Source of the DNA: the human T2T-CHM13v2.0 reference genome, Homo sapiens
Assembly: GCA_009914755.4 (NCBI GenBank)
Contig: CP068257.2
Span: forward strand, 6,784,001-6,848,000
Reading direction: 5' to 3'
Length of the DNA stretch: 64,000 nucleotides
The position numbers and the translations under genes are program-made. Of this stretch, positions 1 through 57,400 are shown in pieces. The notes below the pieces were generated by a model. The model was not told the DNA's origin. It saw nothing but the letters and a program-made list of their open reading frames with translations, and did not search any database. Each line of letters opens with the position of its first letter. Positions within the stretch are counted from its first letter, which is position 1.

Positions 1-419
1 CAATCAACTTTGGTGGAATGGTATGGAATGGAATGGAAAGGAATGGAATGGAATGGAATAAAAGGGCATGGAATGGAATGAAATCAACCCGAATGGAATG
101 GAACGGAATGGAGTAGAATGGTATAGAATGGAATGGAATGGAAAGGAATCAACCTGAAGGGTATGGAATGGAATGGAATGGAATGGAATTGAATTGAATG
201 GAATGGAATGGAATCAACCAGAGGGGAATGCAATGAAATGAAATGGAATGGAATGGAACGGAAAGCAACGGAACGGAACGGAATTGAATGGAATGGAATG
301 AACCCGAGTGGAAAGGAATGGAATGGAATGGAATGGAATGGAATAACATGCAATCAACTTTGGTGGAATGGTATGGAATGGAATGGAATGGAATGGAATC
401 GAATGGAATGGAATCAACC

Positions 420-1870
420 CGAGTGGAATGCAATGGAATGAAAAGGAATGGAATGGAACGGAACGGAACGGAACGGAACGGAATTGAATGGAATGGAATC
501 AACCCGAGGGGAAAGGAATGGAATGGAATGGAATGGAATGGAATGGAATGGAATGGAATAAAAGGGCATGGAATGGAATGGAATCATCCCGAGGGGAATG
601 GAATGGAATGGAATGGAATGAAATGGAAATGAATCAAACCGAGTGGAATTTAATGTAATATAATGTAATGGAATGGAATGGAAACAATGCAATGCAATGA
701 TATCAACTGGAATGGAATGCATTGGAATGGAATGGAATGGAATCACCCTGAGTGGAAAGGAATAGAATGGAATGGAAAGGAATGTAATGGAATGGAAACT
801 AATGGAACGGAATGGAAACCACCAGAGTGGAATGGAATGCAATGGAATGGAATCGAATGGAATGGAATGGAATGGAATGGAATGGAATGGAATGGAATGG
901 AATAGAATACAACAAAATGGAAACAACCCGAGTGGAATGGCATGGAATGAAAAGGATTGAATATAATGGAATGGATTGGAATCAACCCGATTAGAAACTA
1001 ATGGAATGGAATGGAATGGAATGGAATGGAATGGAATGGAATGGAATGGAATGGAATGGAATCTAACCTAGTGGAATGGAAAGGAATGGAATTTAAAGAA
1101 ATGAAATGGAATGGAATGGAACAGAATTGAATGGAATGGAATGGAATGGAATCTACCCGAGTGAAATGGAATGGAATGGAATTTAATGGAATGGAATGGT
1201 ATAGAATGTAATGGAATCAACCCCAGTGGAATGGTATAGAATGTAATGTAATGGAATGGAATGGAATAAAATGGAATGGAATGGAAACAACCCGAGTGGA
1301 ATGGAATGGAATAACCGGAGAGGAATGGAATGGAATGGAGTGGAATGGAATGGAATAGAATGGAATAGAATGGAAAGGAATAGAATGAAATTGAAAGGAA
1401 TGGAATGGAAACCACCCGAGTGGAATGGAATGGAATGGAATGGAATGCAATGGAAACATCCCGAGTGGAATGGAAAGGAATGGAATGGAACGGAATATAA
1501 TGGAATGGAATGGAAACATCCCGAGTGGAATGGAATGGTATGGAATGCAATTGAATGGTATGGAACAGAACGGAATGAAATGGAATGCAATAGATTGCGA
1601 GTGGAATTGAATGGAATGGAATGGATTGGAATGGAATGGAAAGGATTGGAGTGGAATGGAATGGAATCAACAAGAATGGAATGGAAAGGAATGGAATGGA
1701 ATGGAATGGAATGGAATGGAATGGAATGGAATGGTAAGGAACAGAATGGAAACAACCCGAGTGGAATGGAATGGAATGGACTGTAATCCACCCGAGTGGA
1801 ATGGAATGTAATGGAATTGAACGGAATATAATGGAATTGAATGGAATCATCCCGAGTCGAATGGAATGGT
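420..1870. repeat. Short-variant-specific segment (also ~39135-40590 in copy 4, ~47020-48478 in copy 5)
   Basis: TTTAATGTAATATAATGTAATGG...AAACAATGCAATGCAATGATATCAACTGG occurs only at ~640, ~39370 and ~47275. The peptide signature MPFHSGFFHFVVFHCIPFHS (1068..1967, 39889..40683) occurs only in the short copies (a TRDVSIPFHYIPFHS-related segment is also in copy 5, 47666..48148). The long copies carry only ~85%-type paralogues (e.g. 10200-10480). Confidence 0.6.
903..1003. repeat. Recurring ~100 bp diverged landmark element GAATACAACAAAATGGAAACAACCCGAGTGGAATGGCATGGAATGGAAAGGACTTGAATATAATGGAATGGATTGGAATCAACCCGATTAGAAACTAATGG. Approximate copies start at 905, 1925, 3555, 4640, 11200, 13560, 15325, 17455, 19050, 20130, 26585, 28955, 30710, 32845, 34440, 35525, 39625, 40650, 42265, 43365, 47525, 51625, 57425
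   Basis: Read directly from the sequence. Spacing between neighbours is 1.0-2.4 kb, with a ~6.5 kb landmark-free zone spanning each HOR boundary. Copies at HOR-equivalent positions are identical; copies within a unit differ by a few substitutions (e.g. GATTAGAAACTAATGG vs GATTAGAAATTAATGG; GGAAACAACCC vs GGAAAAAACCC). Confidence 0.75.
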
Positions 1871-4800
1871 ATCTAATGCAATGGAATGGAATGGAATGGA
1901 ATGGAATGGAATGGAATGGAATGCAATGGAACACAACAAAATGGAAAAAACCCGAGTGGAATGGCATGGAATGGAAAGGACTTGAATATAATGGAATGGA
2001 TTGGTATCATCCCGATTAGAAATTAATGGAATGGAATGGAATGGAAAGGAATGGAATGGAATGGAACCTACACAAGTGGAATGGAATGAAATGGAAATAA
2101 ATGGAATGGAATAGAATGGAAAGGAATGGAACGGAATGGAATGGAATGGAATGGAATGGAATCTACCCGAGTGGAATGGAATGGAATGGAATTTAATGGA
2201 ATGGAATGGAATAGAATGGTATGGAATCAACCCGAGTGGAATGGTAAAGAATGCAATGTAATGGAACGGAATGGAATGGAATAAAATGGAATGGAATGGA
2301 ATGGAAACAACCCGAGTTGAATGGAATGGAATGGAATAACCGGAGAGGAATGGAATGGAATGCAGGGTAATGGAATGGAATAGAATGGAATGGAATGGAA
2401 TGGAATAGAATGAAATGGAAAGGAATGGAATAGAAACAACCCGAGTGGAATGGAATGGAATGGAATCCACCCGAGTGGAATGGAATGCAATGGAATTGAA
2501 CGGAATATAATGGAATTGAATAGAATCATCCTGAGTGGAATGGAATGGTATCTAATGCAATGGAGTGGAATGGAACAGAACTGAATGGGATGGAAAGAAT
2601 AGATTGAATCCAAGTGGAATTGAATGGAATGAAATGGATTCGAAAGGAATGGAATGGATTGGAATGGATTGGAATGGAAAGGAATGGATTCAACCCGAGT
2701 GGAATGTAATGGATTGGAATGGAGTGGAATGGAATGGAATGGAATCAACACGAATGGAATGGAACGGAATGGAATGGAATGGTATGGAATGAAATAGAAA
2801 GGAACGGAATAGAATCAACCAAAGTGGAATGGAATGGAATGGAATGGAAGGGAATCAACACGAGTGGAATTGAATGGAAAGGAATGCAATGGAATGGAAT
2901 GGAATGGAATGGAATGGAATGGAATGGAATGCAATGGAATTCAATGGAATCAACCCGAGTGGAATGGAATGCTATGGAATGCAATGGAATGGAGTGGAAC
3001 AGAACGGAATGGAATTGCATGGAATTGATTGAATCCGAGTGGAATTGAACGGAAGGGAATGCATTGGAATGGAAAGGAAAGGATTCAACCCGAGTGGAAT
3101 GTAATGGAATGGAGTGGAGTGGAATGGAATGGTATGGATTGGAATGGAATGGAATGGAATGGAATCAACACAAAGGGAATGGAATGGAATGGAATAGAAT
3201 GGAAAGGAATGGAATGGAATGGTATGGAATGTAATGTAATGGAATGGAATGGAATGAAATGGAATCAACCGGAATGGAATGGAATGGAATGGAATGGAAT
3301 GGAATGGAATGGAATGGAAATGAATCAAACCGAGTGGAATGGAATGGAATGGAATGGAAACAATGCCATGCAATGGTATCAACGGGAATGGAATGCATTG
3401 GAATGGAATGGAATGGAATCACCCTGAGTGGATAGGAAAGGAATGGAAGGGAATGGAAAGGAATGGAATGGAATGGAAACTAATGGAAGGGAATGGAAAC
3501 AACCCGAGTGGAATGGAATGGAATGGAATGGAATGGAATGGAATGGAATGGAATACAACAAAATGGAAACAACCCGAGTGGAATGGCATGGAATGGAAAG
3601 GACTTGAATATAATGGAATGGATTGGAATCAACCCGATTAGAAACTAATGGAATGGAATGGAATGGAATGGAATGGAATGGAATGGAATGGATTGGAATT
3701 TACCCGAATGGAATGGAATGTAATGAAATTAAATGGAATGGAAAGGAATGGAAAGGAATGGAATGGAATCTACACGAGTGGAATGGAATTGAATTGAATT
3801 TAATGGAATTGAACGGAATACAATGATATGGAATCAACCCGTGTGGAATGGTATAGAATGTAATGTAATGGAATGGAATGGAATAAAATGGAATGGACTG
3901 GAATGGAAACAAAACGAGTGGAACGGAATGGAATAACCTGAGAGGAATGGAATGGAATGGAGTGGCATGGAATGGAATAGAATGGAATGGAATGGAATGG
4001 AATAGAATGAAATTGAAAGGAATGGAATGGAAACAACCCGTGTGGAATGGAATGGAAAGGAATCAACCTGAAGGGTATGGAATGGAATGGAATGGAATGG
4101 AATGGAATGGAATGGAATGGAATCAACCAGAGTGGAATGCAATGGAATGAAATGGAATTGAAATGAATGGAATGGAACGGAATGGAACGGAACGGAATTG
4201 AATCGAATGGAATCAACCCAAATTGAAAGGAATGGAATGGAATGGACTGGAATGGAATGGAATGGAATGGAATGGAATGGAATGGATTGGAATGGATTCA
4301 ACACAAATGGAATGGAATGGAACGGAATGGAATAGAATGGAAAGGAGTGGAATGCAATTGAATGGAATGAAATGGAATAAACCCGAATGGAATGGAATGG
4401 AATGGAATGGAATTGAGTGGAATGGAATAAACACCAGTGGAATGAAATGGAATGGAATGGAATGGAATGAAATCAACACGAGTAGAACGGAACGGAATGG
4501 AATGGAATGGAAAGGAATGGAATCAACTGGAATGGAATGAAATGGAATGGAATGGAGTGGAATGTAATGGAATGCAATGGAATCAACAAGAGTGAAATGC
4601 AAAGGAATGGAATGGAATGGAATAGAATGGAATGGAATGGAATACAACAAAATGGAAAGAACTCGAGTGGAATGGCAAGGAATGGAAAGGACTTGAATAA
4701 AATGGAATGGATTGGAATCAACCCGATTAGAAACTAGTGGAAAGGAATGGAATGGAATGGAATCTGCCCGAGTGGAATGGAATGGAATGGAATTGAATGG

Positions 4801-7800
4801 AATGGAATGGAGTGGAATAGAATAGAATGGAATGGAATGGAACGGAATGGAAGGGAATTGAATGGAATAGAATGGAATCGAATCTACCCGAGTGGAATGG
4901 AATGGAAAGGAATTTAATGGAATGGAAAGGAATGGAATGGAATGGAATGGAATGGAATGGAATGGAATGGAATGGAATAAACACCAGTGGAATGAAATGG
5001 AATGGAATGGAATGGAATGCAATGGAATGGAATGGAATGGAGTGGAATGGAATAAACACCAGTGGAATGAAATGGAATGGAATGGAATGGAATGCAATGG
5101 AATGGAATGGAATGGAATGGAATGGAATGGAAACTACTGGAATGGAATGGAAACAACCCGAGTGGAATGGAATGCAATGGAATGGAATGGAATGGAATGA
5201 CACGGAATGGAATGGAATGGACTGGAATGGAATTTAAAGGAATGGAATGGAATCAACCCGACTGGAATGGAATGGAATGTAAAGCAGTGAATGGAATGTA
5301 ATGGAATGAAATGGAATGGAATGGAATGGTATGCAATGCAGTGGAATGGATTTGAATGGAATGGAATGGAACGGAACGGAACGGAATGGAATGGAATGGA
5401 ATGGAATGGAATGGAATGGACACCAATGGAATGGAATGGAATTGAATGGAATGGAATGGAATGGATTGGAATGGATGGGAATGGAATGGAACGGAATTAA
5501 CCGGAGTGGAATGCAATGGAATGGAATGGAGTGGAATGGAATCAACCCGAGTGGAATGGAATGGAATGGAATGGAATGGAATGGAATGGAATGGAATCAA
5601 CACGAATGGACTGGAACGAAATGGAATGGAATGGATTGGAATGGAATGGAATGGAATGGAATGGAATGGAATGGAATGGAATGGAATGGAATAGTATGGT
5701 ATGGAATGAAATGGAAAGAAACAGAATGGAATCAACCCAAGTGGAGTGGAATAGAATGGAATGGAAGGGAATCAATACGAGTCAAATGGAATGGAGTGGA
5801 ATGCTATGGAATGGAATGGAATGAAATGAAATGGAATGTAATGGAATGGAATGGAATTCAAGGGAATCAATCCGAGTGGAATGGAATGGTATGGAATGCA
5901 ATGGAATGGAGTGGAACAGAACGGAATGGAATGGAATGGAATTGATTGAATCCGAATGGAATTGAATGGAAGGGAATGCATTGGAATGGAATAGAAAGGA
6001 TTCAACCCGAGTGGAAAGTAATGGATTGGAATGGAATGGAAAGGAATGGAATGGAATCAACACAAATGGAATGGAATGGAATGGAAAGGAATGGATTGCA
6101 ATGGAATGGAATGGAATGGAATGGAATGGAATGGAATGGAAATGAAAGGAATGGAATGCAATGGAATGGAATGGAATGCAATGGAATGGAATGGAATGCA
6201 ATGGAATGGAATGGAATGAAATGAAATAAACCCGAATGGAATGGAATGGAATGGAATGCAATGCCATGGAATGGAATGGAATGGAGTGGAATGGAATAAA
6301 CAGAAGTGGAATGAATTGGAATGGAATGAAATGGAATGGAATGGAATGGAATGGACTGGAATGAAATAAACCCGAGTAGAATGGAACGGAATGGATTGGA
6401 ATGGAAAGGAATTGAATAAACTGGAATGGAATGAAATGGAATGGAAGGGAGTGGAATGGAATGGAATACAATGGAATCAACACGAGTGGAATGCAATGCA
6501 ACGGAAGGGAAAGGAATGGAATGGAACGGAACCAACCCGAGTGGAGTGGAATAAAGTGGAATGGAATGGAGTATGATCAACCTGAGTGGAACGGAATGCA
6601 ATGGAATGGAATGGAATGGAATGGTTTCAACCAGAGTGGAATGGAATGGAATGGAATGGAACGGAATGGAATGCAATGGACGTAACTGGAATGGAATGGA
6701 ATGGAATGGAATGGAATGGAATGGAATGGAACGGAATCAACATGAGTCAAATGGAATGGAATGGAATGGAATGGAATGGAATGGAATGGAGTCAACACGA
6801 ATGGACTGGAACGTAATGGAATGGAATGGAATGGAATGGTATGGTTTGGAATGAAATGGAAAGGAACGGAATGGAATCAACCCAAGTGGAGTGGAATAGA
6901 ATGGAATGGAAGGGAATGAAGACGAGTCAAATGGAATGGAATGGAATGCAATGGAAAGGAATGGAATGCAATGAAATGGAATGGAATGGAATGGAATGGA
7001 ATGCAATGGAATGGAATGGAATTCAGTGAAATGGAATGGAAAAGAATGGAATGGAATAGAATGGAATCTACTGTAATGGAATGGAAACAACCTGAGTGGA
7101 ATGGAATGCAATGGAATGGAATGGAATGGAATGGAATGGAATGGAATGGAAAGGAACGGAATGTAAAGGAATGGAATGGAATCAACCCGACTGGAATGGA
7201 ATGGAATGGAAAGGAATGAATGGAATGGAATGGAATGGAATGGAATGGAATGGAATGGAATGGAATGGAATTGTATGGAATACAATGATATGGAATTGAA
7301 TGGAATGGAACGGAATGGAACGGAATGGAATGGAATGGACCCCAATGGAATGGAATGGAATGGAATGGATTGGAATGGAATGGAACGGAATTAACCCGAG
7401 TGGAATGGAATGGAATGGAATGGAGTGGAATGGAATGGAATGGAATGGAATGGAATGGAATGGAAAGGAATCAACCCGAGTGGAATGCAATGAAATGGAA
7501 TGCAATGGAATGGAATGGTATGGAATCAACCCTAGTGAAATGGTATGGAATGGAATGGAATGGAACAGAATGGAATGGAATCATCCCGAATGGAATGGAA
7601 AGGAATGGAGAGGAATGGTACGGTATGGAATGGAATGGAAAGGAATCAACCCGAAGGTTATGGAATGGAATGCAATGGAATGGAATGGAATCAACCCGAG
7701 TGGAATGCAATCGAATAAAATGGAATGGAATGAAACGGAAAGGAACGGAATGGAACGGAATTGAAAGGAATGGAATCAAACCGAGTGGAAAGGAATGGAA

Positions 7801-8261
7801 TGGAATGAAATGCAATGGTGTGGAATGGAATGGAAAGGAATAACATGCAATCGACTTTAGTGGAATGGTATGGAATGGAATAATATGCAATCAACTTTGG
7901 TGGAATGGTATAGAATGGAATGGAATGGAAAGGAATCAACCTGAAGGGTATGGAATGGAATGGAATGGAATGGAATGGAATGGAATTGAATTGAATGGAA
8001 TGGAATGGAATGGAATCAACCAGAGGGGAATGCAATGAAATGAAATGGAATGGAATGGAACGGAAAGCAATGGAACGGAACGGAATTGAATGGAATGGAA
8101 TGAACCCGAGTGGAAAGGAATGGAATGGAATGGAATGGAATGGAATGGAATAACATGCAATCAACTTTGGTGGAATGGTATGGAATGGAATGGAATGGAA
8201 TGGAATCGAATGGAATGGAATCAACCCGAGTGGAATGCAATGGAATGAAAAGGAATGGAAT

Positions 8262-8288
8262 GGAACGGAACGGAACGGAACGGAACGG
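8262..8288. repeat. Example of a CpG-retaining (GGAAC)5 variant run; homologous runs at ~456-485, 23669-23695, 39172-39198, 47068-47094, 49800-49826
   Basis: Direct reading: GGAACGGAACGGAACGGAACGGAACGG. Confidence 0.85.
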
Positions 8289-8299
8289 AATGGAATGGA

Positions 8300-11200
8300 A
8301 TGGAATCAACCCGAGGGGAAAAGAATGGAATGGAATGGAATGGAATGGAATGGAATGGAATGGAATGGAATGGAATAAAAGGGCATGGAATGGAATGGAA
8401 TCATCCCGAGGGGAATGGAATGGAATGGAATGGAATGGAATGGAATGGAATGGAATGGAATGGAATCAACCTGAGTTGAACGGAATGGAATGGAATGGAA
8501 TGGAATGGAATGGAATGGTATCAACCAGAGTGGAATGGAATGGAATTGAATGGAATGGAACGGAATGGAATGCAATGGAATCAACTGGAATGGAATGGAA
8601 TTGAATGAAATGGAATGGAATCAACCTCAGTCAAATAGAATGGAATGGAATGGAATGGAATGGAATGGAATGGAATGGAATGGAATGGAATGGAATGGAA
8701 GGGAAAGGAACGGAATGGAATCAACCCGAGTGGAATGGAATGGAATGGAATGGAATCCACCCGAGTGGAATGGAATGGAATGGAATGCAATGGAATTGAA
8801 CGGAATATAATGGAATTAAATGGAATCATCCCGTGTGGAACAGATTGGTATCTAATGCAATGGAATGGAATGGAACAGAACGGAATGGAATGGAAGAATA
8901 GATTGAATCCAATTGGAATTGAATGGAATGGAATGGATTGGAAAGGAATGGAATGGATTGCAATGGATTGGAATGGAAAGGAATGGATTCAGCCCGAGTG
9001 GAATGTAATGGATTGGAATGGAATGGAATGGAATGGAATGGAATGGAATGGTATGGAATGAAATGGAAAGGAACGGAACAGAATCAACACAAGTGGAATG
9101 GAATGGAAAGGAATGCAATTGAATGGAATGGAATGGAATGGAATGGAATGGAATGGAATGGAATGGAATCAACCCGAGTGGAGTAGAATGGAATGGAATG
9201 GAATGAACCGCAGTGGAATGGAATGGAATGGAATGCAATAGAATGGAATGGAATGGAAAGGAATGGAATTCAATGGAATCAACCCGAGTGGAATGGAATG
9301 GTATGGAATGCAATGGAATGGAGTGGAACAGAACGGAATGGAATGGAATGGAAATGATTGAATCTGAGTGGAATTGAATGGAAGGGAAAGCATTGGAAAG
9401 GAATGGAAAGGATTCAACCCGAGTGGAATGTAATGGATTGGAATGGAGTGGAATGTAATGGAATGGATTGGAATGGAATGGAATCAACACAAATGGAAAG
9501 GAATGGAATGGAATGGAATAGAATGGAAAGGAATGGAATGCAATGGAATGGAATGGAATGGAATGAAATGGAATAAACCCGAATGGAATGGAATGGAATG
9601 GAATGGAATGGAATGAATTGGAATAAACCCGAGTGGAATGGAATGGAATGGAATGGAAAGGAATGGAATGGAGTGGAATGGAATGGACTGGAATGGAATG
9701 CAAAGTAATGGAATGGAACCAACCCGACTGGAATGGAATGGAATGGAATGGAAAGGAATGAATGGAATGGAATGGAATGGAATGGTATGGAATGCAATCG
9801 GATGGAATTCAATGGAATGGAACACAATGGAATGGAATGGAATGGAATGGGCCCCAATGGAATGTAATGTAATGGAATGGATTGGAATGGAATGGAATGG
9901 AATTAACCCGAGTGGAATGGAATGTAATGGAATGGAATGGAATGGAATCAACCCGAGTGGAAAGGAATGGCATGCAATCGAATGGAATGGAATGGAATCA
10001 ATCCAAGAGGAATGGAATGGAATGAAATGGAAAGCAATGGAATGGAATGGAATGGAATGGAATGGAATGGAATGGAATGGAATGGAATGGAATCAACCCG
10101 AGTGGAAAGGAATGGCATGCAATCGAATGGAATGGAATGGAATGGAATCAATCCAAGAGGAATGGAATGGAATGGAATGGAATGCAATGGAATGGAATGG
10201 AATGGAATGGAATGGAATGGAATGGAAATGAATCAAACCGAGTGGAATGTAATGTAATGTAATGGAATGGAATGGAATTTAAACAATGCAATGCAATGGT
10301 ATCAACTGGAATGGAATGCATTGGAATCGAATGGAATGGAATCACCCAGAGTTTAAAGGAATGGAATGGAATGGAATGGAATGGAATGGAATGGAATGGA
10401 AAGGAATGGAATGGAATGGAAACTACAGGAACCGAAAAGAAAGAACCCGAGTGGAATGGAATGCAATGCAATGGAAAGGAATGGAATGGAATGGAATGGA
10501 ACGGAATAAAATGGAATGGAATGGAATCATCCCGAGTGGAATGGAATGACATGGAATGCAATAGAATGGAATGGAACAGAACGGAATGAAATGGAATGGA
10601 ATAGATTGAATGCGAGTGGAAATGAATGGAACGGAATGGATTGGAATGGAATGGAATGGATTGAAGTGGAATGGAATGGAATCAACACGAATGGAATGGA
10701 ACGGAATGGCAGGGATTGGAAAGGAACGGAATGGAATCAACCCGAGTGGAATGGAATGGAATGGAATCCACCCGATTGGAATGAAATGGAATGCAATGTA
10801 ATGGAATGCATTGGAATCAACTCGAGTGGAATGGAATGGAATGGAATGGAATGGAATGGAATGGAATGGAAGAGAATCGAATCCAATGGAATCAACTGGA
10901 ATGGAATGGAATGGAATGGAATGGAATGGAATGGAATGGAATGGAATCAATCCGGGTGGAATGGAATGGAATGGAATGGAGTGCACTGGAATTAAATGGA
11001 GTGGAATGGAATGGAATGGAATCAACCCGTATGGAATGGAACGGAATGGAATGGAAAGGAATGGAATGGAATGGAATGGAATGGAATGGAATGGAATGGA
11101 ACAGAATAGAATGGAATCAGCCCAAATGGGATGGAATGGAATGGAATGGAATGGAATGGAATGGAATGGAATGGAATGGAATGGAATGGAATGGAATGGA

Positions 11201-17200: not shown

Positions 17201-17400
17201 ATGGAATGGAATTTCATGAAATGGAATGGAATGGAATGGTATGGAATAAACACGACTGGAATGGTATGGAATGGAACGGAATGGAATGGAATAAAATGGA
17301 ATGGAATGGAATGGAATCAACTCGAGTGAAATGGAATGGAATGAAATGGAATGGAAAGGAATGTAATCAACCGGAGTGGAGTGGAATGGAATGGAGTAGA
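8300..17400. repeat. Long-variant-specific segment (copy 2; equivalent block in copy 3 at ~23700-32800), itself built from nested diverged duplications (~10500-11300 ~ 12140-12830 ~ 15950-16600; 12830-13660 ~ 16600-17450; 11280-11520 ~ 13640-13880 ~ 17530-17790)
   Basis: Artefact ORFs 10516..10995, 12141..12821 and 15856..16329 translate to near-identical peptides (MEWNHPEWNGM[T/A]WNAIEWNGTERNEMEWNRLNASG...). So do 12826..13140 and 16606..16851 (MEYNGMEWKGMESTQVHWNGMECNGINPRVMEWK...). No exact counterpart in copies 1, 4 or 5. Confidence 0.65.
8412..8466. repeat. Example of a pure (GGAAT)11 run; dozens of similar uninterrupted runs of 8-14 pentamers occur throughout (e.g. 1005-1060, 12001-12050, 32180-32235)
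   Basis: Direct reading. Confidence 0.9.
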
Positions 17401-38200: not shown

Positions 38201-38717
38201 GGAATGGAACGGAATTAACCCGAGTGGAATGGAATGGAATGGAATGGAGTGGAATGGAATGGAATGGAATGGAATGGAATGGAATGGAATGGAAAGGAAT
38301 CAACCCGAGTGGAATGCAATGAAATGGAATGCAATGGAATGGAATGGTATGGAATCAACCCTAGTGAAATGGTATGGAATGGAATGGAATGGAACAGAAT
38401 GGAATGGAATCATCCCGAATGGAATGGAAAGGAATGGAGAGGAATGGTACGGTATGGAATGGAATGGAAAGGAATCAACCCGAAGGTTATGGAATGGAAT
38501 GCAATGGAATGGAATGGGATCAACCCGAGTGGAATGCAATCGAATAAAATGGAATGGAATGAAACGGAAAGGAACGGAATGGAACGGAATTGAAAGGAAT
38601 GGAATCAAACCGAGTGGAAAGGAATGGAATGGAATGAAATGCAATGGTGTGGAATGGAACGGATAGGAATAACATGCAATCGACTTTAGTGGAATGGTAT
38701 GGAATGGAATAATATGC
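23283..38717. repeat. HOR copy 3, long (~15.4 kb) variant, near-identical to copy 2
   Basis: Compared with copy 2 at offset ~15390-15395, many artefact ORF translations are identical (8852..9703=24247..25098; 9414..9857=24809..25252; 9638..10231=25033..25626; 14570..15088=29955..30473). The differences spotted are GGAAT run-length changes. Confidence 0.8.
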
Positions 38718-41700
38718 AATCAACTTTGGTGGAATGGTATGGAATGGAATGGAAAGGAATGGAATGGAATGGAATAAAAGGGCATGGAATGGAATGAAAT
38801 CAACCCGAATGGAATGGAACGGAATGGAGTAGAATGGTATAGAATGGAATGGAATGGAAAGGAATCAACCTGAAGGGTATGGAATGGAATGGAATGGAAT
38901 GGAATTGAATTGAATGGAATGGAATGGAATCAACCAGAGGGGAATGCAATGAAATGAAATGGAATGGAATGGAACGGAAAGCAACGGAACGGAACGGAAT
39001 TGAATGGAATGGAATGAACCCGAGTGGAAAGGAATGGAATGGAATGGAATGGAATGGAATAACATGCAATCAACTTTGGTGGAATGGTATGGAATGGAAT
39101 GGAATGGAATGGAATCGAATGGAATGGAATCAACCCGAGTGGAATGCAATGGAATGAAAAGGAATGGAATGGAACGGAACGGAACGGAACGGAACGGAAT
39201 TGAATGGAATGGAATCAACCCGAGGGGAAAGGAATGGAATGGAATGGAATGGAATGGAATGGAATGGAATGGAATGGAATGGAATAAAAGGGCATGGAAT
39301 GGAATGGAATCATCCCGAGGGGAATGGAATGGAATGGAATGGAATGAAATGGAAATGAATCAAACCGAGTGGAATTTAATGTAATATAATGTAATGGAAT
39401 GGAATGGAAACAATGCAATGCAATGATATCAACTGGAATGGAATGCATTGGAATGGAATGGAATGGAATCACCCTGAGTGGAAAGGAATAGAATGGAATG
39501 GAAAGGAATGTAATGGAATGGAAACTAATGGAACGGAATGGAAACCACCAGAGTGGAATGGAATGCAATGGAATGGAATCGAATGGAATGGAATGGAATG
39601 GAATGGAATGGAATGGAATGGAATACAACAAAATGGAAACAACCCGAGTGGAATGGCATGGAATGAAAAGGATTGAATATAATGGAATGGATTGGAATCA
39701 ACCCGATTAGAAACTAATGGAATGGAATGGAATGGAATGGAATGGAATGGAATGGAATGGAATGGAATCTAACCTAGTGGAATGGAAAGGAATGGAATTT
39801 AAAGAAATGAAATGGAATGGAATGGAACAGAATTGAATGGAATGGAATGGAATGGAATCTACCCGAGTGAAATGGAATGGAATGGAATTTAATGGAATGG
39901 AATGGTATAGAATGTAATGGAATCAACCCCAGTGGAATGGTATAGAATGTAATGTAATGGAATGGAATGGAATAAAATGGAATGGAATGGAAACAACCCG
40001 AGTGGAATGGAATGGAATAACCGGAGAGGAATGGAATGGAATGGAGTGGAATGGAATGGAATAGAATGGAATAGAATGGAATGGAATAGAATGAAATTGA
40101 AAGGAATGGAATGGAAACCACCCGAGTGGAATGGAATGGAATGGAATGGAATGCAATGGAAACATCCCGAGTGGAATGGAAAGGAATGGAATGGAACGGA
40201 ATATAATGGAATGGAATGGAAACATCCCGAGTGGAATGGAATGGTATGGAATGCAATTGAATGGTATGGAACAGAACGGAATGAAATGGAATGCAATAGA
40301 TTGCGAGTGGAATTGAATGGAATGGAATGGATTGGAATGGAATGGAAAGGATTGGAGTGGAATGGAATGGAATCAACAAGAATGGAATGGAAAGGAATGG
40401 AATGGAATGGAATGGAATGGAATGGAATGGAATGGAATGGAATGGAATGGTAAGGAACAGAATGGAAACAACCCGAGTGGAATGGAATGGAATGGACTGT
40501 AATCCACCCGAGTGGAATGGAATGTAATGGAATTGAACGGAATATAATGGAATTGAATGGAATCATCCCGAGTCGAATGGAATGGTATCTAATGCAATGG
40601 AATGGAATGGAATGGAATGGAATGGAATGGAATGGAATGCAATGGAACACAACAAAATGGAAAAAACCCGAGTGGAATGGCATGGAATGGAAAGGACTTG
40701 AATATAATGGAATGGATTGGTATCATCCCGATTAGAAATTAATGGAATGGAATGGAATGGAAAGGAATGGAATGGAATGGAACCTACACAAGTGGAATGG
40801 AATGAAATGGAAATAAATGGAATGGAATAGAATGGAAAGGAATGGAACGGAATGGAATGGAATGGAATGGAATGGAATCTACCCGAGTGGAATGGAATGG
40901 AATGGAATTTAATGGAATGGAATGGAATAGAATGGTATGGAATCAACCCGAGTGGAATGGTAAAGAATGCAATGTAATGGAACGGAATGGAATGGAATAA
41001 AATGGAATGGAATGGAATGGAAACAACCCGAGTTGAATGGAATGGAATGGAATAACCGGAGAGGAATGGAATGGAATGCAGGGTAATGGAATGGAATAGA
41101 ATGGAATGGAATGGAATGGAATAGAATGAAATGGAAAGGAATGGAATAGAAACAACCCGAGTGGAATGGAATGGAATGGAATCCACCCGAGTGGAATGGA
41201 ATGCAATGGAATTGAACGGAATATAATGGAATTGAATAGAATCATCCTGAGTGGAATGGAATGGTATCTAATGCAATGGAGTGGAATGGAACAGAACTGA
41301 ATGGGATGGAAAGAATAGATTGAATCCAAGTGGAATTGAATGGAATGAAATGGATTCGAAAGGAATGGAATGGATTGGAATGGATTGGAATGGAAAGGAA
41401 TGGATTCAACCCGAGTGGAATGTAATGGATTGGAATGGAGTGGAATGGAATGGAATGGAATCAACACGAATGGAATGGAACGGAATGGAATGGAATGGTA
41501 TGGAATGAAATAGAAAGGAACGGAATAGAATCAACCAAAGTGGAATGGAATGGAATGGAATGGAAGGGAATCAACACGAGTGGAATTGAATGGAAAGGAA
41601 TGCAATGGAATGGAATGGAATGGAATGGAATGGAATGGAATGGAATGCAATGGAATTCAATGGAATCAACCCGAGTGGAATGGAATGCTATGGAATGCAA

Positions 41701-44700
41701 TGGAATGGAGTGGAACAGAACGGAATGGAATTGCATGGAATTGATTGAATCCGAGTGGAATTGAACGGAAGGGAATGCATTGGAATGGAAAGGAAAGGAT
41801 TCAACCCGAGTGGAATGTAATGGAATGGAGTGGAGTGGAATGGAATGGTATGGATTGGAATGGAATGGAATGGAATGGAATCAACACAAAGGGAATGGAA
41901 TGGAATGGAATAGAATGGAAAGGAATGGAATGGAATGGTATGGAATGTAATGTAATGGAATGGAATGGAATGAAATGGAATCAACCGGAATGGAATGGAA
42001 TGGAATGGAATGGAATGGAATGGAATGGAATGGAATGGAAATGAATCAAACCGAGTGGAATGGAATGGAATGGAATGGAAACAATGCCATGCAATGGTAT
42101 CAACGGGAATGGAATGCATTGGAATGGAATGGAATGGAATCACCCTGAGTGGATAGGAAAGGAATGGAAGGGAATGGAAAGGAATGGAATGGAATGGAAA
42201 CTAATGGAAGGGAATGGAAACAACCCGAGTGGAATGGAATGGAATGGAATGGAATGGAATGGAATGGAATGGAATACAACAAAATGGAAACAACCCGAGT
42301 GGAATGGCATGGAATGGAAAGGACTTGAATATAATGGAATGGATTGGAATCAACCCGATTAGAAACTAATGGAATGGAATGGAATGGAATGGAATGGAAT
42401 GGAATGGAATGGATTGGAATTTACCCGAATGGAATGGAATGTAATGAAATTAAATGGAATGGAAAGGAATGGAAAGGAATGGAATGGAATCTACACGAGT
42501 GGAATGGAATTGAATTGAATTTAATGGAATTGAACGGAATACAATGATATGGAATCAACCCGTGTGGAATGGTATAGAATGTAATGTAATGGAATGGAAT
42601 GGAATAAAATGGAATGGACTGGAATGGAAACAAAACGAGTGGAACGGAATGGAATAACCTGAGAGGAATGGAATGGAATGGAGTGGCATGGAATGGAATA
42701 GAATGGAATGGAATGGAATGGAATAGAATGAAATTGAAAGGAATGGAATGGAAACAACCCGTGTGGAATGGAATGGAAAGGAATCAACCTGAAGGGTATG
42801 GAATGGAATGGAATGGAATGGAATGGAATGGAATGGAATGGAATCAACCAGAGTGGAATGCAATGGAATGAAATGGAATTGAAATGAATGGAATGGAACG
42901 GAATGGAACGGAACGGAATTGAATCGAATGGAATCAACCCAAATTGAAAGGAATGGAATGGAATGGACTGGAATGGAATGGAATGGAATGGAATGGAATG
43001 GAATGGATTGGAATGGATTCAACACAAATGGAATGGAATGGAACGGAATGGAATAGAATGGAAAGGAGTGGAATGCAATTGAATGGAATGAAATGGAATA
43101 AACCCGAATGGAATGGAATGGAATGGAATGGAATTGAGTGGAATGGAATAAACACCAGTGGAATGAAATGGAATGGAATGGAATGGAATGAAATCAACAC
43201 GAGTAGAACGGAACGGAATGGAATGGAATGGAAAGGAATGGAATCAACTGGAATGGAATGAAATGGAATGGAATGGAGTGGAATGTAATGGAATGCAATG
43301 GAATCAACAAGAGTGAAATGCAAAGGAATGGAATGGAATGGAATAGAATGGAATGGAATGGAATACAACAAAATGGAAAGAACTCGAGTGGAATGGCAAG
43401 GAATGGAAAGGACTTGAATAAAATGGAATGGATTGGAATCAACCCGATTAGAAACTAGTGGAAAGGAATGGAATGGAATGGAATCTGCCCGAGTGGAATG
43501 GAATGGAATGGAATTGAATGGAATGGAATGGAGTGGAATAGAATAGAATGGAATGGAATGGAACGGAATGGAAGGGAATTGAATGGAATAGAATGGAATC
43601 GAATCTACCCGAGTGGAATGGAATGGAAAGGAATTTAATGGAATGGAAAGGAATGGAATGGAATGGAATGGAATGGAATGGAATGGAATGGAATGGAATA
43701 AACACCAGTGGAATGAAATGGAATGGAATGGAATGGAATGCAATGGAATGGAATGGAATGGAGTGGAATGGAATAAACACCAGTGGAATGAAATGGAATG
43801 GAATGGAATGGAATGCAATGGAATGGAATGGAATGGAATGGAATGGAATGGAAACTACTGGAATGGAATGGAAACAACCCGAGTGGAATGGAATGCAATG
43901 GAATGGAATGGAATGGAATGACACGGAATGGAATGGAATGGACTGGAATGGAATTTAAAGGAATGGAATGGAATCAACCCGACTGGAATGGAATGGAATG
44001 TAAAGCAGTGAATGGAATGTAATGGAATGAAATGGAATGGAATGGAATGGTATGCAATGCAGTGGAATGGATTTGAATGGAATGGAATGGAACGGAACGG
44101 AACGGAATGGAATGGAATGGAATGGAATGGAATGGAATGGACACCAATGGAATGGAATGGAATTGAATGGAATGGAATGGAATGGATTGGAATGGATGGG
44201 AATGGAATGGAACGGAATTAACCGGAGTGGAATGCAATGGAATGGAATGGAGTGGAATGGAATCAACCCGAGTGGAATGGAATGGAATGGAATGGAATGG
44301 AATGGAATGGAATGGAATGGAATCAACACGAATGGACTGGAACGAAATGGAATGGAATGGATTGGAATGGAATGGAATGGAATGGAATGGAATGGAATGG
44401 AATGGAATAGTATGGTATGGAATGAAATGGAAAGAAACAGAATGGAATCAACCCAAGTGGAGTGGAATAGAATGGAATGGAAGGGAATCAATACGAGTCA
44501 AATGGAATGGAGTGGAATGCTATGGAATGGAATGGAATGAAATGAAATGGAATGTAATGGAATGGAATGGAATTCAAGGGAATCAATCCGAGTGGAATGG
44601 AATGGTATGGAATGCAATGGAATGGAGTGGAACAGAACGGAATGGAATGGAATGGAATTGATTGAATCCGAATGGAATTGAATGGAAGGGAATGCATTGG

Positions 44701-46602
44701 AATGGAATAGAAAGGATTCAACCCGAGTGGAAAGTAATGGATTGGAATGGAATGGAAAGGAATGGAATGGAATCAACACAAATGGAATGGAATGGAATGG
44801 AAAGGAATGGATTGCAATGGAATGGAATGGAATGGAATGGAATGGAATGGAATGGAAATGAAAGGAATGGAATGCAATGGAATGGAATGGAATGCAATGG
44901 AATGGAATGGAATGCAATGGAATGGAATGGAATGAAATGAAATAAACCCGAATGGAATGGAATGGAATGGAATGCAATGCCATGGAATGGAATGGAATGG
45001 AGTGGAATGGAATAAACAGAAGTGGAATGAATTGGAATGGAATGAAATGGAATGGAATGGAATGGAATGGACTGGAATGAAATAAACCCGAGTAGAATGG
45101 AACGGAATGGATTGGAATGGAAAGGAATTGAATAAACTGGAATGGAATGAAATGGAATGGAAGGGAGTGGAATGGAATGGAATACAATGGAATCAACACG
45201 AGTGGAATGCAATGCAACGGAAGGGAAAGGAATGGAATGGAACGGAACCAACCCGAGTGGAGTGGAATAAAGTGGAATGGAATGGAGTATGATCAACCTG
45301 AGTGGAACGGAATGCAATGGAATGGAATGGAATGGAATGGTTTCAACCAGAGTGGAATGGAATGGAATGGAATGGAACGGAATGGAATGCAATGGACGTA
45401 ACTGGAATGGAATGGAATGGAATGGAATGGAATGGAATGGAATGGAACGGAATCAACATGAGTCAAATGGAATGGAATGGAATGGAATGGAATGGAATGG
45501 AATGGAGTCAACACGAATGGACTGGAACGTAATGGAATGGAATGGAATGGAATGGTATGGTTTGGAATGAAATGGAAAGGAACGGAATGGAATCAACCCA
45601 AGTGGAGTGGAATAGAATGGAATGGAAGGGAATGAAGACGAGTCAAATGGAATGGAATGGAATGCAATGGAAAGGAATGGAATGCAATGAAATGGAATGG
45701 AATGGAATGGAATGGAATGCAATGGAATGGAATGGAATTCAGTGAAATGGAATGGAAAAGAATGGAATGGAATAGAATGGAATCTACTGTAATGGAATGG
45801 AAACAACCTGAGTGGAATGGAATGCAATGGAATGGAATGGAATGGAATGGAATGGAATGGAATGGAAAGGAACGGAATGTAAAGGAATGGAATGGAATCA
45901 ACCCGACTGGAATGGAATGGAATGGAAAGGAATGAATGGAATGGAATGGAATGGAATGGAATGGAATGGAATGGAATGGAATTGTATGGAATACAATGAT
46001 ATGGAATTGAATGGAATGGAACGGAATGGAACGGAATGGAATGGAATGGACCCCAATGGAATGGAATGGAATGGAATGGATTGGAATGGAATGGAACGGA
46101 ATTAACCCGAGTGGAATGGAATGGAATGGAATGGAGTGGAATGGAATGGAATGGAATGGAATGGAATGGAATGGAAAGGAATCAACCCGAGTGGAATGCA
46201 ATGAAATGGAATGCAATGGAATGGAATGGTATGGAATCAACCCTAGTGAAATGGTATGGAATGGAATGGAATGGAACAGAATGGAATGGAATCATCCCGA
46301 ATGGAATGGAAAGGAATGGAGAGGAATGGTACGGTATGGAATGGAATGGAAAGGAATCAACCCGAAGGTTATGGAATGGAATGCAATGGAATGGAATGGA
46401 ATCAACCCGAGTGGAATGCAATCGAATAAAATGGAATGGAATGAAACGGAAAGGAACGGAATGGAACGGAATTGAAAGGAATGGAATCAAACCGAGTGGA
46501 AAGGAATGGAATGGAATGAAATGCAATGGTGTGGAATGGAATGGAAAGGAATAACATGCAATCGACTTTAGTGGAATGGTATGGAATGGAATAATATGCA
46601 AT
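38718..46602. repeat. HOR copy 4, short (~7.9 kb) variant, near-identical to copy 1
   Basis: 38718-38897 is identical to 1-180. Short-specific sequence (TTTAATGTAATATAATGTAATGG at ~39372, cf. ~647) is present. Tail ORFs match copy 1 at offset ~38.7 kb (4213..5097 = 42934..43818, both 294 aa and identical). Confidence 0.8.
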
Positions 46603-48478
46603 CAACTTTGGTGGAATGGTATGGAATGGAATGGAAAGGAATGGAATGGAATGGAATAAAAGGGCATGGAATGGAATGGAATCAACCCGAATGGAATGGA
46701 ACGGAATGGAGTAGAATGGTATAGAATGGAATGGAATGGAAAGGAATCAACCTGAAGGGTATGGAATGGAATGGAATGGAATGGAATTGAATTGAATGGA
46801 ATGGAATGGAATGGAATCAACCAGAGGGGAATGCAATGAAATGAAATGGAATGGAATGGAACGGAAAGCAACGGAACGGAACGGAATTGAATGGAATGGA
46901 ATGAACCCGAGTGGAAAGGAATGGAATGGAATGGAATGGAATGGAATGGAATAACATGCAATCAACTTTGGTGGAATGGTATGGAATGGAATGGAATGGA
47001 ATGGAATCGAATGGAATGGAATCAACCCGAGTGGAATGCAATGGAATGAAAAGGAATGGAATGGAACGGAACGGAACGGAACGGAACGGAATGGAATGGA
47101 ATGGAATCAACCCGAGGGGAAAAGAATGGAATGGAATGGAATGGAATGGAATGGAATGGAATGGAATGGAATGGAATAAAAGGGCATGGAATGGAATGGA
47201 ATCATCCCGAGGGGAATGGAATGGAATGGAATGGAATGGAATGGAATGAAACGGAAATAAATCAAACCGAGTGGAATTTAATGTAATATAATGTAATGGA
47301 ATGGAATGGAAACAGTGCAATGCAATGATATCAACTGGAATGGAATGCATTGGAATGGAATGGAATGGAATCACCCTGAGTGGAAAGGAATAGAATGGAA
47401 TGGAAAGGAATGTAATGGAATGGAAACTAATGGAACGGAATGGAAACCACCAGAGTGGAATGGAATGCAATGGAATGGAATCGAATGGAATGGAATGGAA
47501 TGGAATGGAATGGAATGGAATGGAATGGAATACAACAAAATGGAAACAACCCGAGTGGAATGGCATGGAATGAAAAGGATTGAATATAATGGAATGGATT
47601 GGAATCAACCCGATTAGAAACTAATGGAATGGAATGGAATGGAATGGAATGGAATGGAATCTAACCTAGTGGAATGGAAAGGAATGGAATTTAAAGAAAT
47701 GAAATGGAATGGAATGGAACAGAATTGAATGGAATGGAATGGAATGGAATCTACCCGAGTGAAATGGAATGGAATGGAATTTAATGGAATGGAATGGTAT
47801 AGAATGTAATGGAATCAACCCCAGTGGAATGGTATAGAATGTAATGGAATGGAATGGAATGGAATAAAATGGAATGGAATGGAAACAACCCGAGTAGAAT
47901 GGAATGGAATAACCGGAGAGGAATGGAATGGAATGGAGTGGAATGGAATGGAATAGAATGGAATAGAAAGGAATGGAATAGAATGAAATTGAAAGGAATG
48001 GAATGGAAACCACCCGAGTGGAATGGAATGGAATGGAATGGAATGCAATGGAATCAACCTGAGTGGAATGGAAAGGAATGGAATGGAACGGAATATAATG
48101 GAATGGAATGGAAACATCCCGAGTGGAATGGAATGGTATGGAATGCAATTGAATGGTATGGAACAGAACGGAATGAAATGGAATGCAATAGATTGATTGC
48201 GAGTGGAATTGAATGGAATGGAATGGATTGGAATGGAATGGAAAGGATTGGAGTGGAATGGAATGGAATCAACAAGAATGGAATGGAAAGGAATGGAATG
48301 GAATGGAATGGAATGGAATGGAATGGAATGGTAAGGAACAGAATGGAAACAACCCGAGTGGAATGGAATGGAATGCACTGTAATCCACCCGAGTGGAATG
48401 GAATGTAATGGAATTGAACGGAATATAATGGAATTGAATGGAATCATCCCGAGTCGAATGGAATGGTATCTAATGCAA
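46603..48478. repeat. HOR copy 5, truncated short-variant copy (first ~1.9 kb only), slightly more diverged (~98% by eye) than copies 1 and 4
   Basis: Marker at 46603; short-specific motif at ~47275. 47850-48478 aligns to 39960-40600 with a handful of substitutions. Colinearity with copy 4 ends abruptly after GGTATCTAATGCAATGG at ~48478. Confidence 0.7.
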
Positions 48479-49939
48479 TGGAATGGAATGGAACAGAACG
48501 GAATGGAATGGAAAGAATAGATTGAATCCAAGTGGAATTGAATGGAATGAAATGGATTGGAAAGGAATGGAATGGATTCTAATGGAAAGGAGTGGATTCA
48601 ACCCGAGGGAATGTAATGGATTGGAATGGAGTGGAATGGAATGGAATGTAATCAACACGAATGGAATGGAACGGAATGGAATGGAATGGAATGGAATGCT
48701 ATGGAATGAAATAGAAAGGAACGGAATAGAATCAACCCAAATGGAATGGAATGGAATGGAATGGAATGGAATGGAAGGGAATCAACACGTGTGGAATGGA
48801 ATGGAAAGGAATGCAAAGGAATGGAATGGAATGGAATGCAATGGAATGGAATGGAATGGAATGGAATGGAATCAACCCGAGTGGAGGGGAATGGAATGGA
48901 ATGGAATCAACAAGAGTGGAGTGGAATAAAATGGAATGGAATGGGATGGAATCAACCTGAGTGGAACGGAATGGAATGGAATGGAACGGAATGGAATGGT
49001 ATCAACCAGAGTGGACTGGAATGGAATGGAATGGAATGGAATGGAATGGAATGGAACAGAATCAACCTGAGTCAAATAGAATGGAATGGAATGGAATGGA
49101 ATGCAATGGAATGGAAACTACTGGAATGTCATGGAAACAACCCGAGTGGAATGGAATGGAATGGAATGGAATGGAATGGAATGGAATGGATTGGAATGGA
49201 ATGTAAAGGAATGGAATGGAATCAACCCGACTGGAATGGAATGGAAAGGAAAGGAATGAATGGAATGGAATGGAATGGAATGGAATGGATTGGAATGGAA
49301 TGGAATGGAATAAACCAGAATGGAATGGAATGAAATGGAATGGAATGGAGTGGAATGGAATAAACACCAGTGGAATGAAATGGAATGGAAGGAAATGGAA
49401 TGGAATGGAATGGAATGGAATGGAATGGAATGGAATGGAATGAAATCAACCCGAATAGAATGGAACGGAAAGGAATGTAATGGAATAGAGTGGAATGGAA
49501 TGGAATGGAATGGAATGGAATGGAATGGAATGGATTCAACCCGAGTGGAATGGAATGGAATGGAATGCAATGGAATGGAATGGTATGGAATCAACCCTAG
49601 TGGAATGGTATGGAATGGAATGGAACGGAACGGAATGGAATTTAATCAACCCGAATGGAATGGAACGGAATGGAGTGGAATGGTACGGAATGGAATGAAA
49701 TGGAAAGGAATCAACACGAAGGGTATGGATTGTAATGCAATGGAATGGAATGGAATGGAATCAACCCGACTGGAATGCAATGGAATAAAATGGAATGGAA
49801 TGGAACGGAACGGAACGGAACGGAACGGAATTGAAAGGAATGGAATCAACCCGAGTGAAAAGGAATGGAATGGAAAGGAATGGAATGGAATGGAATGGAA
49901 TGGAATGGAATGGAATGGAGTGGAATGGAATGGAATGGA

Positions 49940-57300: not shown

Positions 57301-57400
57301 TAGCATGCAATCAACTTTGGTGGAATGGTATGGAATGGAATGGAATGGAATAGAATGGAAACTACTGGAATGGAATGGAAATAAACCGAGTGGAATGGAA
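54340..57400. repeat. Second stretch of the ~300-400 bp ATAACATGCAATCAACTTTGGTGG / ATAAAAGGGCATGG sub-repeat, ~8-9 irregular copies
   Basis: Marker positions ~54351, 55150, 55188, 55443, 56190, 56519, 56907 and 57309 (spacings 290-800). ATAAAAGGGCATGG is present in each. Confidence 0.65.

What the first reader, a model, noticed from the sequence alone, without database searches (positions are those of the whole stretch)
1..48478. Highly homogenised HOR array with two length variants in the order short-long-long-short(-truncated short)
The same marker (CAATCAACTTTGGTGGAATGGTAT[G/A]GAATGG) restarts units at 1, 7889, 23283, 38718 and 46603. That gives units of 7888, 15394, 15435 and 7885 bp. Same-type copies are near-identical over stretches I compared: long vs long at offset ~15.39 kb, short vs short at ~38.72 kb. 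The short and long variants share the ~420 bp head and ~6 kb tail but carry different middle blocks (1.45 kb vs 9.1 kb). Such recent homogenisation with structural variant units is typical of actively exchanging satellite arrays. The S-L-L-S order is a useful haplotype/assembly signature.
Basis: seen in the sequence. Interest (0 to 1): 0.6.

Follow-up and report, generated by a model that had tools for sequence, protein, structure and literature searches.

The report
Recently duplicated HSat3 satellite repeat units
The window is ordinary primate "satellite III" (GGAAT)n DNA in which a 7.9-kb and a 15.4-kb block were copied a few times very recently by misaligned recombination, next to older, decayed copies of the same material. 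This is a known behaviour of this satellite, not a new kind of element.

Summary
The marker restarts at 1, 7888, 23283, 38717 and 46599, giving units of 7887, 15395, 15434 and 7882 bp. L1 vs L2 have 24 substitutions (99.84%). S1 vs S2 have 1 substitution (99.99%). All other differences are indels, nearly all multiples of 5 bp.

The whole 64 kb is Human Satellite 3-type DNA on one strand: 53% exact GGAAT and 145 CAACCCGAGT motifs, with no transposon or gene.

The interpretation needs correcting in four places.
- There is no discrete monomer, so this is a "nested tandem repeat" in the T2T papers' sense, not a HOR.
- The last unit is not truncated. Its continuity into the flank is the native sequence, and the mid-block-to-tail junction of the short unit is the derived one. 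Read tail-first, the array ends on a whole unit.
- Identity is not type-specific. L1's tail switches from L-type to S-type within 18999-19099, while L2's tail is 0.44% diverged.
- The pattern fits a few discrete, very recent unequal exchanges at pure (GGAAT)n runs, not array-wide homogenisation.

From ~48.49 kb on lie 81-93% diverged older copies. The finding is ordinary and of low interest. Species, chromosome, subfamily and read support could not be tested.

The parts
1..7887 (+). Short unit S1 = head H (1-628) + S-specific middle (629-~1879) + tail T (~1880-7887). The window starts at its head, so what lies upstream is unknown.
   Evidence: It differs from S2 by 1 substitution (1376) and 8 pentamer-multiple indels.
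7888..23282 (+). Long unit L1 = head (7888-8445, lacking ~100 bp present in the S head) + L-specific middle (8446-~17400) + tail (~17401-23282).
   Evidence: It has a private 105-bp deletion at 22179.
23283..38716 (+). Long unit L2, with the same layout as L1. Its tail from 34489 on carries about 19 private substitution events.
38717..46598 (+). Short unit S2, near-identical to S1.
   Evidence: 99.99%; tails identical in substitutions.
46599..48493 (+). S3: head plus S-specific middle only. It has 13 substitutions against S2 over ~1.85 kb (~99.3%). It is not a truncation, because it runs natively into the flank.
48494..64000 (+). Flank F: older HSat3 in the same orientation. It is a mosaic of 81-93% diverged copies of tail-end, head, S-middle and tail-start modules. 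It includes head-like repeats 390 bp apart at 49948/50338/50728 and weak ~5.2-5.8 kb spacing.
1879..1923 (+). Derived junction S-middle|tail, inside a pure (GGAAT)n run. The same junction occurs in S2 at about 40595-40640.
17401..17448 (+). L-middle|tail boundary, inside a pure (GGAAT)n run. This continuity is native, with a paralogue at 13185-13895 (92.8%).
18999..19099 (+). Switch point in L1's tail from L-type markers to S-type sequence. This is the inferred crossover (or conversion boundary) of the 15.4-kb duplication.
   Evidence: six L1+L2-shared markers (2 substitutions and 4 indels) up to L1 18999. From 19099 on, L1 = S1 = S2 and only L2 differs.
12688..19179 (+). Older internal ~3.8-3.9 kb duplication within L (12688-15458 ~ 16463-19179, 89-96%). 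There is also a 1.63-kb repeat, 10261-11086 ~ 11890-12701 (91-96%).

Best explanation
The window is Human Satellite 3-type DNA: a (GGAAT)n base with CAACCCGAGT-type interruptions, all on one strand. It is organised as a nested tandem repeat.

Older layers are 1.6-3.9 kb modules that are 89-96% alike, together with the 81-93% diverged flank after 48.49 kb. These were overprinted by a young local amplification of 7.9-kb and 15.4-kb units.

The inferred history is as follows.
(a) The ancestral order was ...[head-Lmid-tail][head-Smid]-flank.
(b) A tandem duplication of [tail-head-Smid] (7.9 kb), with both end points in pure (GGAAT)n runs, created the short unit and its novel Smid|tail junction.
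(c) Much later, two unequal sister-chromatid or homologue exchanges within the shared tail/head produced the present order. One placed a copy of the short unit upstream, giving S1 = S2. The other paired an L tail with the upstream S tail, a 15.4-kb register shift with its crossover at L1 18999-19099. That event duplicated the long unit and left L1 with an L-type proximal and S-type distal tail.
(d) Since then the copies have diverged mainly by replication slippage of whole pentamers in long pure runs.

What is shown: the identities, the breakpoints, the mosaic variant pattern and the native versus derived status of the junctions. What is inferred: the order of events and the mechanism (unequal exchange and slippage).

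No sequence-specific function is implied. By family knowledge, HSat3 is pericentromeric heterochromatin whose G-rich strand can be transcribed under stress. That was not tested here.
For: Family identity: 6831 exact GGAAT (53% of bases), 145 CAACCCGAGT, lag-5 self-identity 0.73, constant GC skew of +0.65, and no non-satellite insert.

Young units. A k=12/16 interval spectrum peaks at 15.3-15.5, 7.8-7.9 and 38.7 kb, with minor peaks at 3.7-3.9 and 1.6 kb.

Breakpoints: all S/L breakpoints lie in pure (GGAAT)n runs.

Native junctions: the S3-to-flank continuity is reproduced in three paralogues, at 8.8 kb, 14.1 kb and 2.5 kb. The Lmid-to-tail continuity is reproduced at 13185-13895. Only Smid|tail is therefore novel.

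S is not a deletion derivative of L: the S middle has only 78-92% matches in L.

Mosaic tails: L-type markers are shared by L1 and L2 up to L1 18999. After that, L1 has 0 substitutions against S1/S2 over 4.28 kb, while L2 has about 19 private events. L1 vs L2 over 7888-18999 differ by a single substitution.

Indels: 82% lie in perfect period-5 runs of at least 30 bp, against 18% of random positions.

Literature: HSat2/3 long units are called NTRs. A chr20 HSat3B3 array shows local recent expansions and variable NTR length. Yq12 HSat3 shows iterative tandem duplications consistent with unequal exchange.
Against: - Only five units are in view, and the sequence upstream of position 1 is unseen, so the proposed larger duplication cannot be checked.
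- The L1 tail mosaic could equally come from a >4-kb gene-conversion tract.
- The simplest form of step (b) predicts that S2's tail should be closest to L2's tail. It is in fact closest to L1's, so later exchange has to be invoked.
- S3's head shares four states with L-type heads. The model does not explain this without a further conversion or extra mutations.
- No reads were available, so assembly error in the near-identical copies cannot be excluded.
- Species, chromosome and HSat3 subfamily are undetermined. None of the 14 top subfamily 24-mers matches exactly.
Confidence: 0.8

Rival explanations
1. The window samples the edge of a long, actively homogenising higher-order-repeat array. S and L are structural-variant units kept alike by continuous concerted evolution, and the last unit is truncated at the array border.
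For: There are large near-identical units with shared head and tail. The array may continue upstream of position 1. Structural-variant units are common in alpha-satellite HOR arrays.
Against: There is no discrete monomer. The last unit is not truncated. The variant pattern forms sharp blocks: 0-1 substitutions in some blocks and 0.44-0.7% in others, with a switch inside 100 bp. That fits a few discrete events rather than diffuse homogenisation. Only five units are seen.
Confidence: 0.12
2. The L1 tail mosaic and the near-identity of blocks come from gene conversion between already existing units, not from crossovers that changed copy number.
For: The sharp L-type to S-type switch at 18999-19099 is equally what a conversion-tract boundary would look like. 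S3's head has a patch of L-like states.
Against: It needs a tract of at least 4.3 kb running to the end of the tail. It also needs separate events to explain why L1 and L2 differ by one substitution over 11.1 kb. One unequal crossover explains both observations.
Confidence: 0.2
3. Assembly artefact: one or more of the near-identical units is a false duplication, or further units have been collapsed, in a hard-to-assemble satellite.
For: S1 and S2 differ by only 1 substitution. The rest of their differences are pentamer-count indels in long pure runs, a class of difference that sequencing or polishing errors can also produce. No reads were available.
Against: The copies sit in different contexts (S1 is followed by L, S2 by S3). 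The units carry coherent, block-wise private variants, including a 105-bp deletion in L1 and about 19 private substitution events in L2's tail. A simple false duplication would not generate these.
Confidence: 0.08

Closest known systems
Human Satellite 3 (HSat3) nested tandem repeats, e.g. local recent expansions in the chr20 HSat3B3 array (Altemose et al., bioRxiv 10.1101/2021.07.12.452052, Fig. S10)
   Same: Both have a (CATTC/GGAAT)n-derived satellite and multi-kb repeat units without fixed monomers. Both show small regions of recent expansion inside older, diverged satellite, and a unit length that varies locally.
   Different: The unit sizes here (7.9 and 15.4 kb, with a 38.7-kb spacing between the two near-identical short units S1 and S2) and the subfamily or chromosome could not be matched to any described array. 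The top 3B3 24-mer is absent as an exact match.
DYZ1 (HSat3A6) on Yq12: ~3.6-kb nested tandem repeats with iterative tandem duplications (Rhie et al., bioRxiv 10.1101/2022.12.01.518724)
   Same: Both are HSat3 organised in kb-scale NTRs that are more than 98% alike. In both, recent duplications are attributed to unequal exchange.
   Different: The period differs. There are no HSat1B blocks here. The HSat3A6 signature 24-mer is absent even with one mismatch.
Alpha-satellite higher-order repeats with structural-variant units
   Same: Both have near-identical large units, length variants that share parts, diverged older layers at the flank, and evolution by unequal exchange.
   Different: Alpha HORs are whole numbers of ~171-bp monomers. 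Here the base repeat is 5 bp with irregular interruptions and no monomer level, so the HOR definition is not met.

Membership tests
Human Satellite 3 (HSat3) | Derived from a (CATTC)n / (GGAAT)n pentamer repeat | tested here: met
   6831 exact GGAAT = 53% of bases. Lag-5 self-identity is 0.73 in every 200-bp window (minimum 0.62). There are 208 pure runs of at least 30 bp.
Human Satellite 3 (HSat3) | Pentamer runs interspersed with the CAACCCGA(A/G)T-type 10-mer. This is my own knowledge of the classical definition; its reverse complement also lies within the HSat3B1 signature 24-mer in Altemose 2014, Table 1. | tested here: met
   145 exact CAACCCGAGT and 304 relaxed copies at irregular spacing.
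Human Satellite 3 (HSat3) | Not HSat2 (distinct subfamily k-mers) | tested here: met
   The three HSat2 signature 24-mers have 0 matches, even with 1 mismatch.
Human Satellite 3 (HSat3) | Assignment to one of the 11 HSat3 subfamilies by subfamily-specific 24-mers | tested here: inconclusive
   Only the single most common 24-mer per subfamily was available. None matches exactly. With up to 1 mismatch the counts are 3B1 x14, 3B3 x6, and 3A4, 3B4 and 3B5 x2 each. The full 24-mer list held in the library is cut off after subfamily 2A1.
Human Satellite 3 (HSat3) | Primate pericentromeric or acrocentric location | not testable with these tools
   No eukaryotic genome collection was available. Metagenome contigs carrying the marker are only 82-90% identical.
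Nested tandem repeat (NTR) in the sense of Altemose et al. | Multi-kb tandem units built on a much shorter satellite repeat, without discrete monomers of similar length | tested here: met
   There are units of 7.9 and 15.4 kb at 99.4-99.99% identity, inner 1.6-3.9 kb repeats at 89-96%, and a 5-bp base repeat.
Higher-order repeat (HOR) as defined for alpha satellite | Unit composed of a discrete number of monomers of similar length | tested here: not met
   The k=6 nearest-interval spectrum has no monomer peak beyond 5 bp. Interrupter spacing is irregular, with modes at 80, 85, 110 and 75 bp and a median of 165 bp.
Higher-order repeat (HOR) as defined for alpha satellite | Units far more alike than their internal sub-repeats | tested here: met
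   Units are 99.4-99.99% alike, against 80-96% for internal paralogues.

The most novel reading that the evidence does not exclude
The S-L-L-S-S' arrangement may record two unequal exchanges so recent that the arrangement is still polymorphic among haplotypes. Only 2 substitutions are seen in about 23 kb of pairwise comparison. At a human-like rate of 0.5e-9 per site per year, this puts the events at roughly 10^4 to 3x10^5 years ago.

In the same young copies, whole-pentamer slippage events outnumber substitutions about 9 to 1. The locus could therefore serve as a natural calibration of slippage versus point mutation, and of crossover placement, inside HSat3.
Probability: 0.35. Interest if true: 0.3.

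Novelty: already known. Interest (0 to 1): 0.15.

Why it matters
It matters little as a discovery. HSat3 arrays, their kb-scale nested repeat units and their growth by local tandem duplication are already described in the T2T centromere and Y-chromosome papers.

The locus is a clean small example in three respects. The junctions can be classed as native or derived. One crossover can be placed within 100 bp. The mutational spectrum of very young copies (pentamer slippage far exceeding substitutions) can be read directly.

Practically, the unit order and the block-wise private variants would make a usable marker for checking assemblies, or for typing haplotypes of this array. That use requires read support for the five units.

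Tried and rejected
- A whole-window self-BLAST timed out. It was replaced by k-mer diagonals and MAFFT or local alignments.
- Subfamily typing with the Altemose 2014 signature 24-mers gave no exact match. The full list held in the library is truncated after subfamily 2A1, and Table S4 holds counts only.
- Exact-product look-ups were run for two ORFs, one spanning the Smid|tail junction and one spanning the Lmid|tail junction, to obtain independent contigs. Neither is on record.
- Marker scans were run on three collections. The 10 metagenome contigs are only 82-90% identical, so they are related HSat3 and not this locus. There were no matches in viral contigs or in prokaryotic genomes.
- A full-text search for the marker sequence found nothing.
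- Rfam gave no family at gathering score.
- 'S is L with a deletion' and 'L is S with an insertion' were both rejected. The S middle has only 78-92% matches in L.
- 'The flank is a colinear old copy of the tail' was rejected. It is a scrambled mosaic.
- A search for an embedded transposon or other non-satellite insert found none.
Full report
**1. What the window is**

All 64 kb is one satellite in one orientation. GC content is 0.40 and GC skew is +0.62 to +0.70 in every 2-kb window. There are 6831 exact GGAAT pentamers, covering 53% of the bases, and 145 exact CAACCCGAGT motifs. Lag-5 self-identity is 0.73 and never falls below 0.62 in any 200-bp window. No stretch departs from this composition, so there is no transposon or unique insert.

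This is the composition of Human Satellite 3 (HSat3), a primate pericentromeric satellite derived from (CATTC)n. HSat2 signature 24-mers are absent. None of the eleven HSat3 subfamily signature 24-mers matches exactly. With one mismatch, 3B1 (14 hits) and 3B3 (6 hits) do best. The subfamily is therefore unresolved. Rfam finds nothing.

**2.

The 40-mer offset histogram peaks at 15,385-15,395 and at 38,716-38,721. The 1-kb dot plot shows those diagonals plus the tail diagonals, and nothing strong beyond about 48.5 kb.

MAFFT global alignments give:
- L1 (7888-23282) vs L2 (23283-38716): 24 substitutions and 25 indel events, 99.84%.
- S1 (1-7887) vs S2 (38717-46598): 1 substitution and 8 indel events, 99.99%.

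Of the 33 indel events, 32 are multiples of 5 bp and one is 6 bp. 82% of them sit in perfect period-5 runs of at least 30 bp, against 18% of random positions.

**3. Anatomy**

- The short unit is head (1-628), S-specific middle (629 to about 1879) and tail (about 1880-7887).
- The long unit is head (7888-8445), L-specific middle (8446 to about 17400) and tail (about 17401-23282).
- The L head lacks about 100 bp that the S head has (S1 about 25-124).
- Every S/L boundary lies inside a pure (GGAAT)n run.
- The S middle is not contained in L; its best matches there are 78-92%. S is therefore not a deletion derivative of L, and L is not S plus an insertion.
- The L middle is built from older copies (80-96%) of a module that equals the first ~1.65 kb of the tail. 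It also contains a ~3.8-3.9-kb internal duplication (12688-15458 ~ 16463-19179) and a 1.63-kb one (10261-11086 ~ 11890-12701).
- With k=12 or 16, an NTRprism-style interval spectrum peaks at 15.3-15.5, 7.8-7.9 and 38.7 kb, with minor peaks at 3.7-3.9 and 1.6 kb. With k=6 only the 5-bp peak and irregular short intervals appear.

The repeat is therefore nested at several levels but has no monomer level. This is what the T2T centromere paper names a nested tandem repeat, as distinct from a HOR.

**4. The fifth unit is not truncated**

S3 (46599 onward) matches S1/S2 with 13 substitutions in about 1.85 kb. The match ends exactly where the S middle meets the tail.

Across that point S3 reads ...TAATGCAATGGAATGGAATGGAACAGAACGGAATGGAATGGAAAGAATAGATTGAATCC.... 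The same continuity is present in three paralogous modules, at L1 8.8 kb, L1 14.1 kb and tail 2.5 kb. The middle-to-flank continuity is therefore the native sequence. The L-middle-to-tail continuity is likewise native, with a paralogue at 13185-13895 at 92.8%.

Only the S-middle|tail junction has no paralogue, so it is the derived one. A tandem duplication of [tail-head-Smid] (7.9 kb) with end points in (GGAAT)n runs would create exactly that junction. Read tail-first, the window is [..head-Smid][tail-head-Lmid][tail-head-Lmid][tail-head-Smid][tail-head-Smid]-flank, and the array ends on a whole unit.

**5. Block-wise variant pattern**

A four-way alignment of the tails shows three things.
- S1 and S2 have identical substitution states throughout.
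- L1 and L2 share six L-type markers up to S1-coordinate 3508 (L1 18999): substitutions at S1 2167 and 3075, and four indels.
- From S1-coordinate 3604 (L1 19099) to the tail end, L1 has no substitution against S1/S2 over 4.28 kb. L2 carries every remaining substitution column: roughly 16 isolated substitutions plus three clusters next to indels, about 19 events or 0.44%.

L1 and L2 differ by a single substitution (13344) over 7888-18999.

One unequal exchange explains this. An L tail paired with the tail of the short unit upstream of it, a 15.4-kb register shift, with the crossover in the 100 bp between 18999 and 19099. The exchange converts S-L-S-S' into S-L1-L2-S-S' and leaves L1 with an L-type proximal and S-type distal tail.

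The near-identity of S1 and S2 implies a second, equally recent exchange, which placed a short unit upstream. That model predicts an L unit with an L2-like tail just upstream of the window. This cannot be checked here. A long gene-conversion tract is the main alternative for the L1 mosaic.

**6. Relative ages (inference, assuming human-like rates)**

The youngest blocks show 2 substitutions in about 23 kb of pairwise comparison. At 0.5e-9 per site per year this corresponds to roughly 10^4 to 3x10^5 years. The S2/S3 and L2-tail differences (0.44-0.7%) are some 50 times older. Internal modules and the flank are far older still. In the youngest blocks, indel events outnumber substitutions by about 9 to 1 (18 vs 2). 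This is either real pentamer slippage or consensus error in run lengths.

**7. The flank (48494-64000)**

The best local matches of 400-bp pieces to S1+L1 are 81-93% identical and are not colinear with a unit. Recognisable pieces are:
- tail-end followed by head (49101-50300, and again 54301-55500);
- three head-like copies 390 bp apart (49948, 50338, 50728);
- tail-start modules (51901-53097).

Internal repeats are weak. The main one is an offset of about 5.8 kb, with about 500 bp of higher identity at 54489-54983. This looks like an older, decayed layer of the same repeat family. It matches the picture of young expansions embedded in diverged satellite described for HSat3B3 on chr20 and for Yq12.

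**8. Related sequences and limits**

- Ten metagenome contigs carry the marker but are only 82-90% identical. They are related HSat3, presumably host contamination, and not this locus.
- Viral and prokaryotic collections have no match.
- Two junction-spanning ORFs are not on record.
- No paper in the library prints the marker.
- Species, chromosome and read support could therefore not be established, and an assembly artefact cannot be formally excluded. The units do, however, have different contexts and coherent private variants (a 105-bp deletion in L1, the L2 tail variants), which argue against a simple false duplication.

**9. Verdict**

It is wrong in three details. It is not a HOR, the last unit is not truncated, and this is a handful of discrete recent duplications with a mosaic unit rather than type-specific homogenisation. 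It is an ordinary instance of a known phenomenon in HSat3, and its interest is low.

Noticed in passing
window 1-38716 (indel sites listed): In the youngest duplicates, indel events outnumber substitutions about 9 to 1 (18 vs 2). Of the 33 indel events between same-type units, 32 are multiples of 5 bp, and 82% lie in perfect period-5 runs of at least 30 bp. This is either fast pentamer slippage or run-length consensus error.
   Followed up: partly
window 7900-7925 vs 20-124: The L-type head lacks about 100 bp that S-type heads have. The missing piece is bounded by GAATGGTAT direct repeats.
   Followed up: partly
window 22179 (L1) vs 37515-37619 (L2): L1 has a private 105-bp deletion relative to S1, S2 and L2. 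It is not in a pure pentamer run: the local period-5 run is only 11 bp.
   Followed up: no
window 36967-37064 (L2 tail): There is a cluster of L2-private differences. It comprises a 40-bp deletion flanked by substitutions, some spaced 5 bp apart (G/C and A/G swaps). It may be a small conversion patch or a register shift of variant pentamers rather than independent point mutations.
   Followed up: no
window 46911-47125 (S3 head): At four sites (two 5-bp indels and two substitutions), S3's head agrees with L-type heads rather than with S1/S2. Elsewhere it is S-type. This could be a conversion patch or derived changes in S1/S2.
   Followed up: no
window 49948-51283: Head-like marker copies recur at 390-bp spacing (49948, 50338, 50728), with another copy at 51253. 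This is a short-period head-module array inside the old flank.
   Followed up: partly
window 34690-36072 (-) and 19558-20592 (-): Long stop-free ORFs (460 and 344 aa) arise simply because (ATTCC)n has no stop codon in any of its three reading frames. They are not on record as called genes and are not evidence of coding.
   Followed up: partly
loci L001-L010 (metagenome contigs): Public metagenome assemblies hold 1-3 kb contigs of related HSat3 that carry the exact 31-bp marker, at 82-90% identity to the window. This is presumably host DNA contamination.
   Followed up: partly
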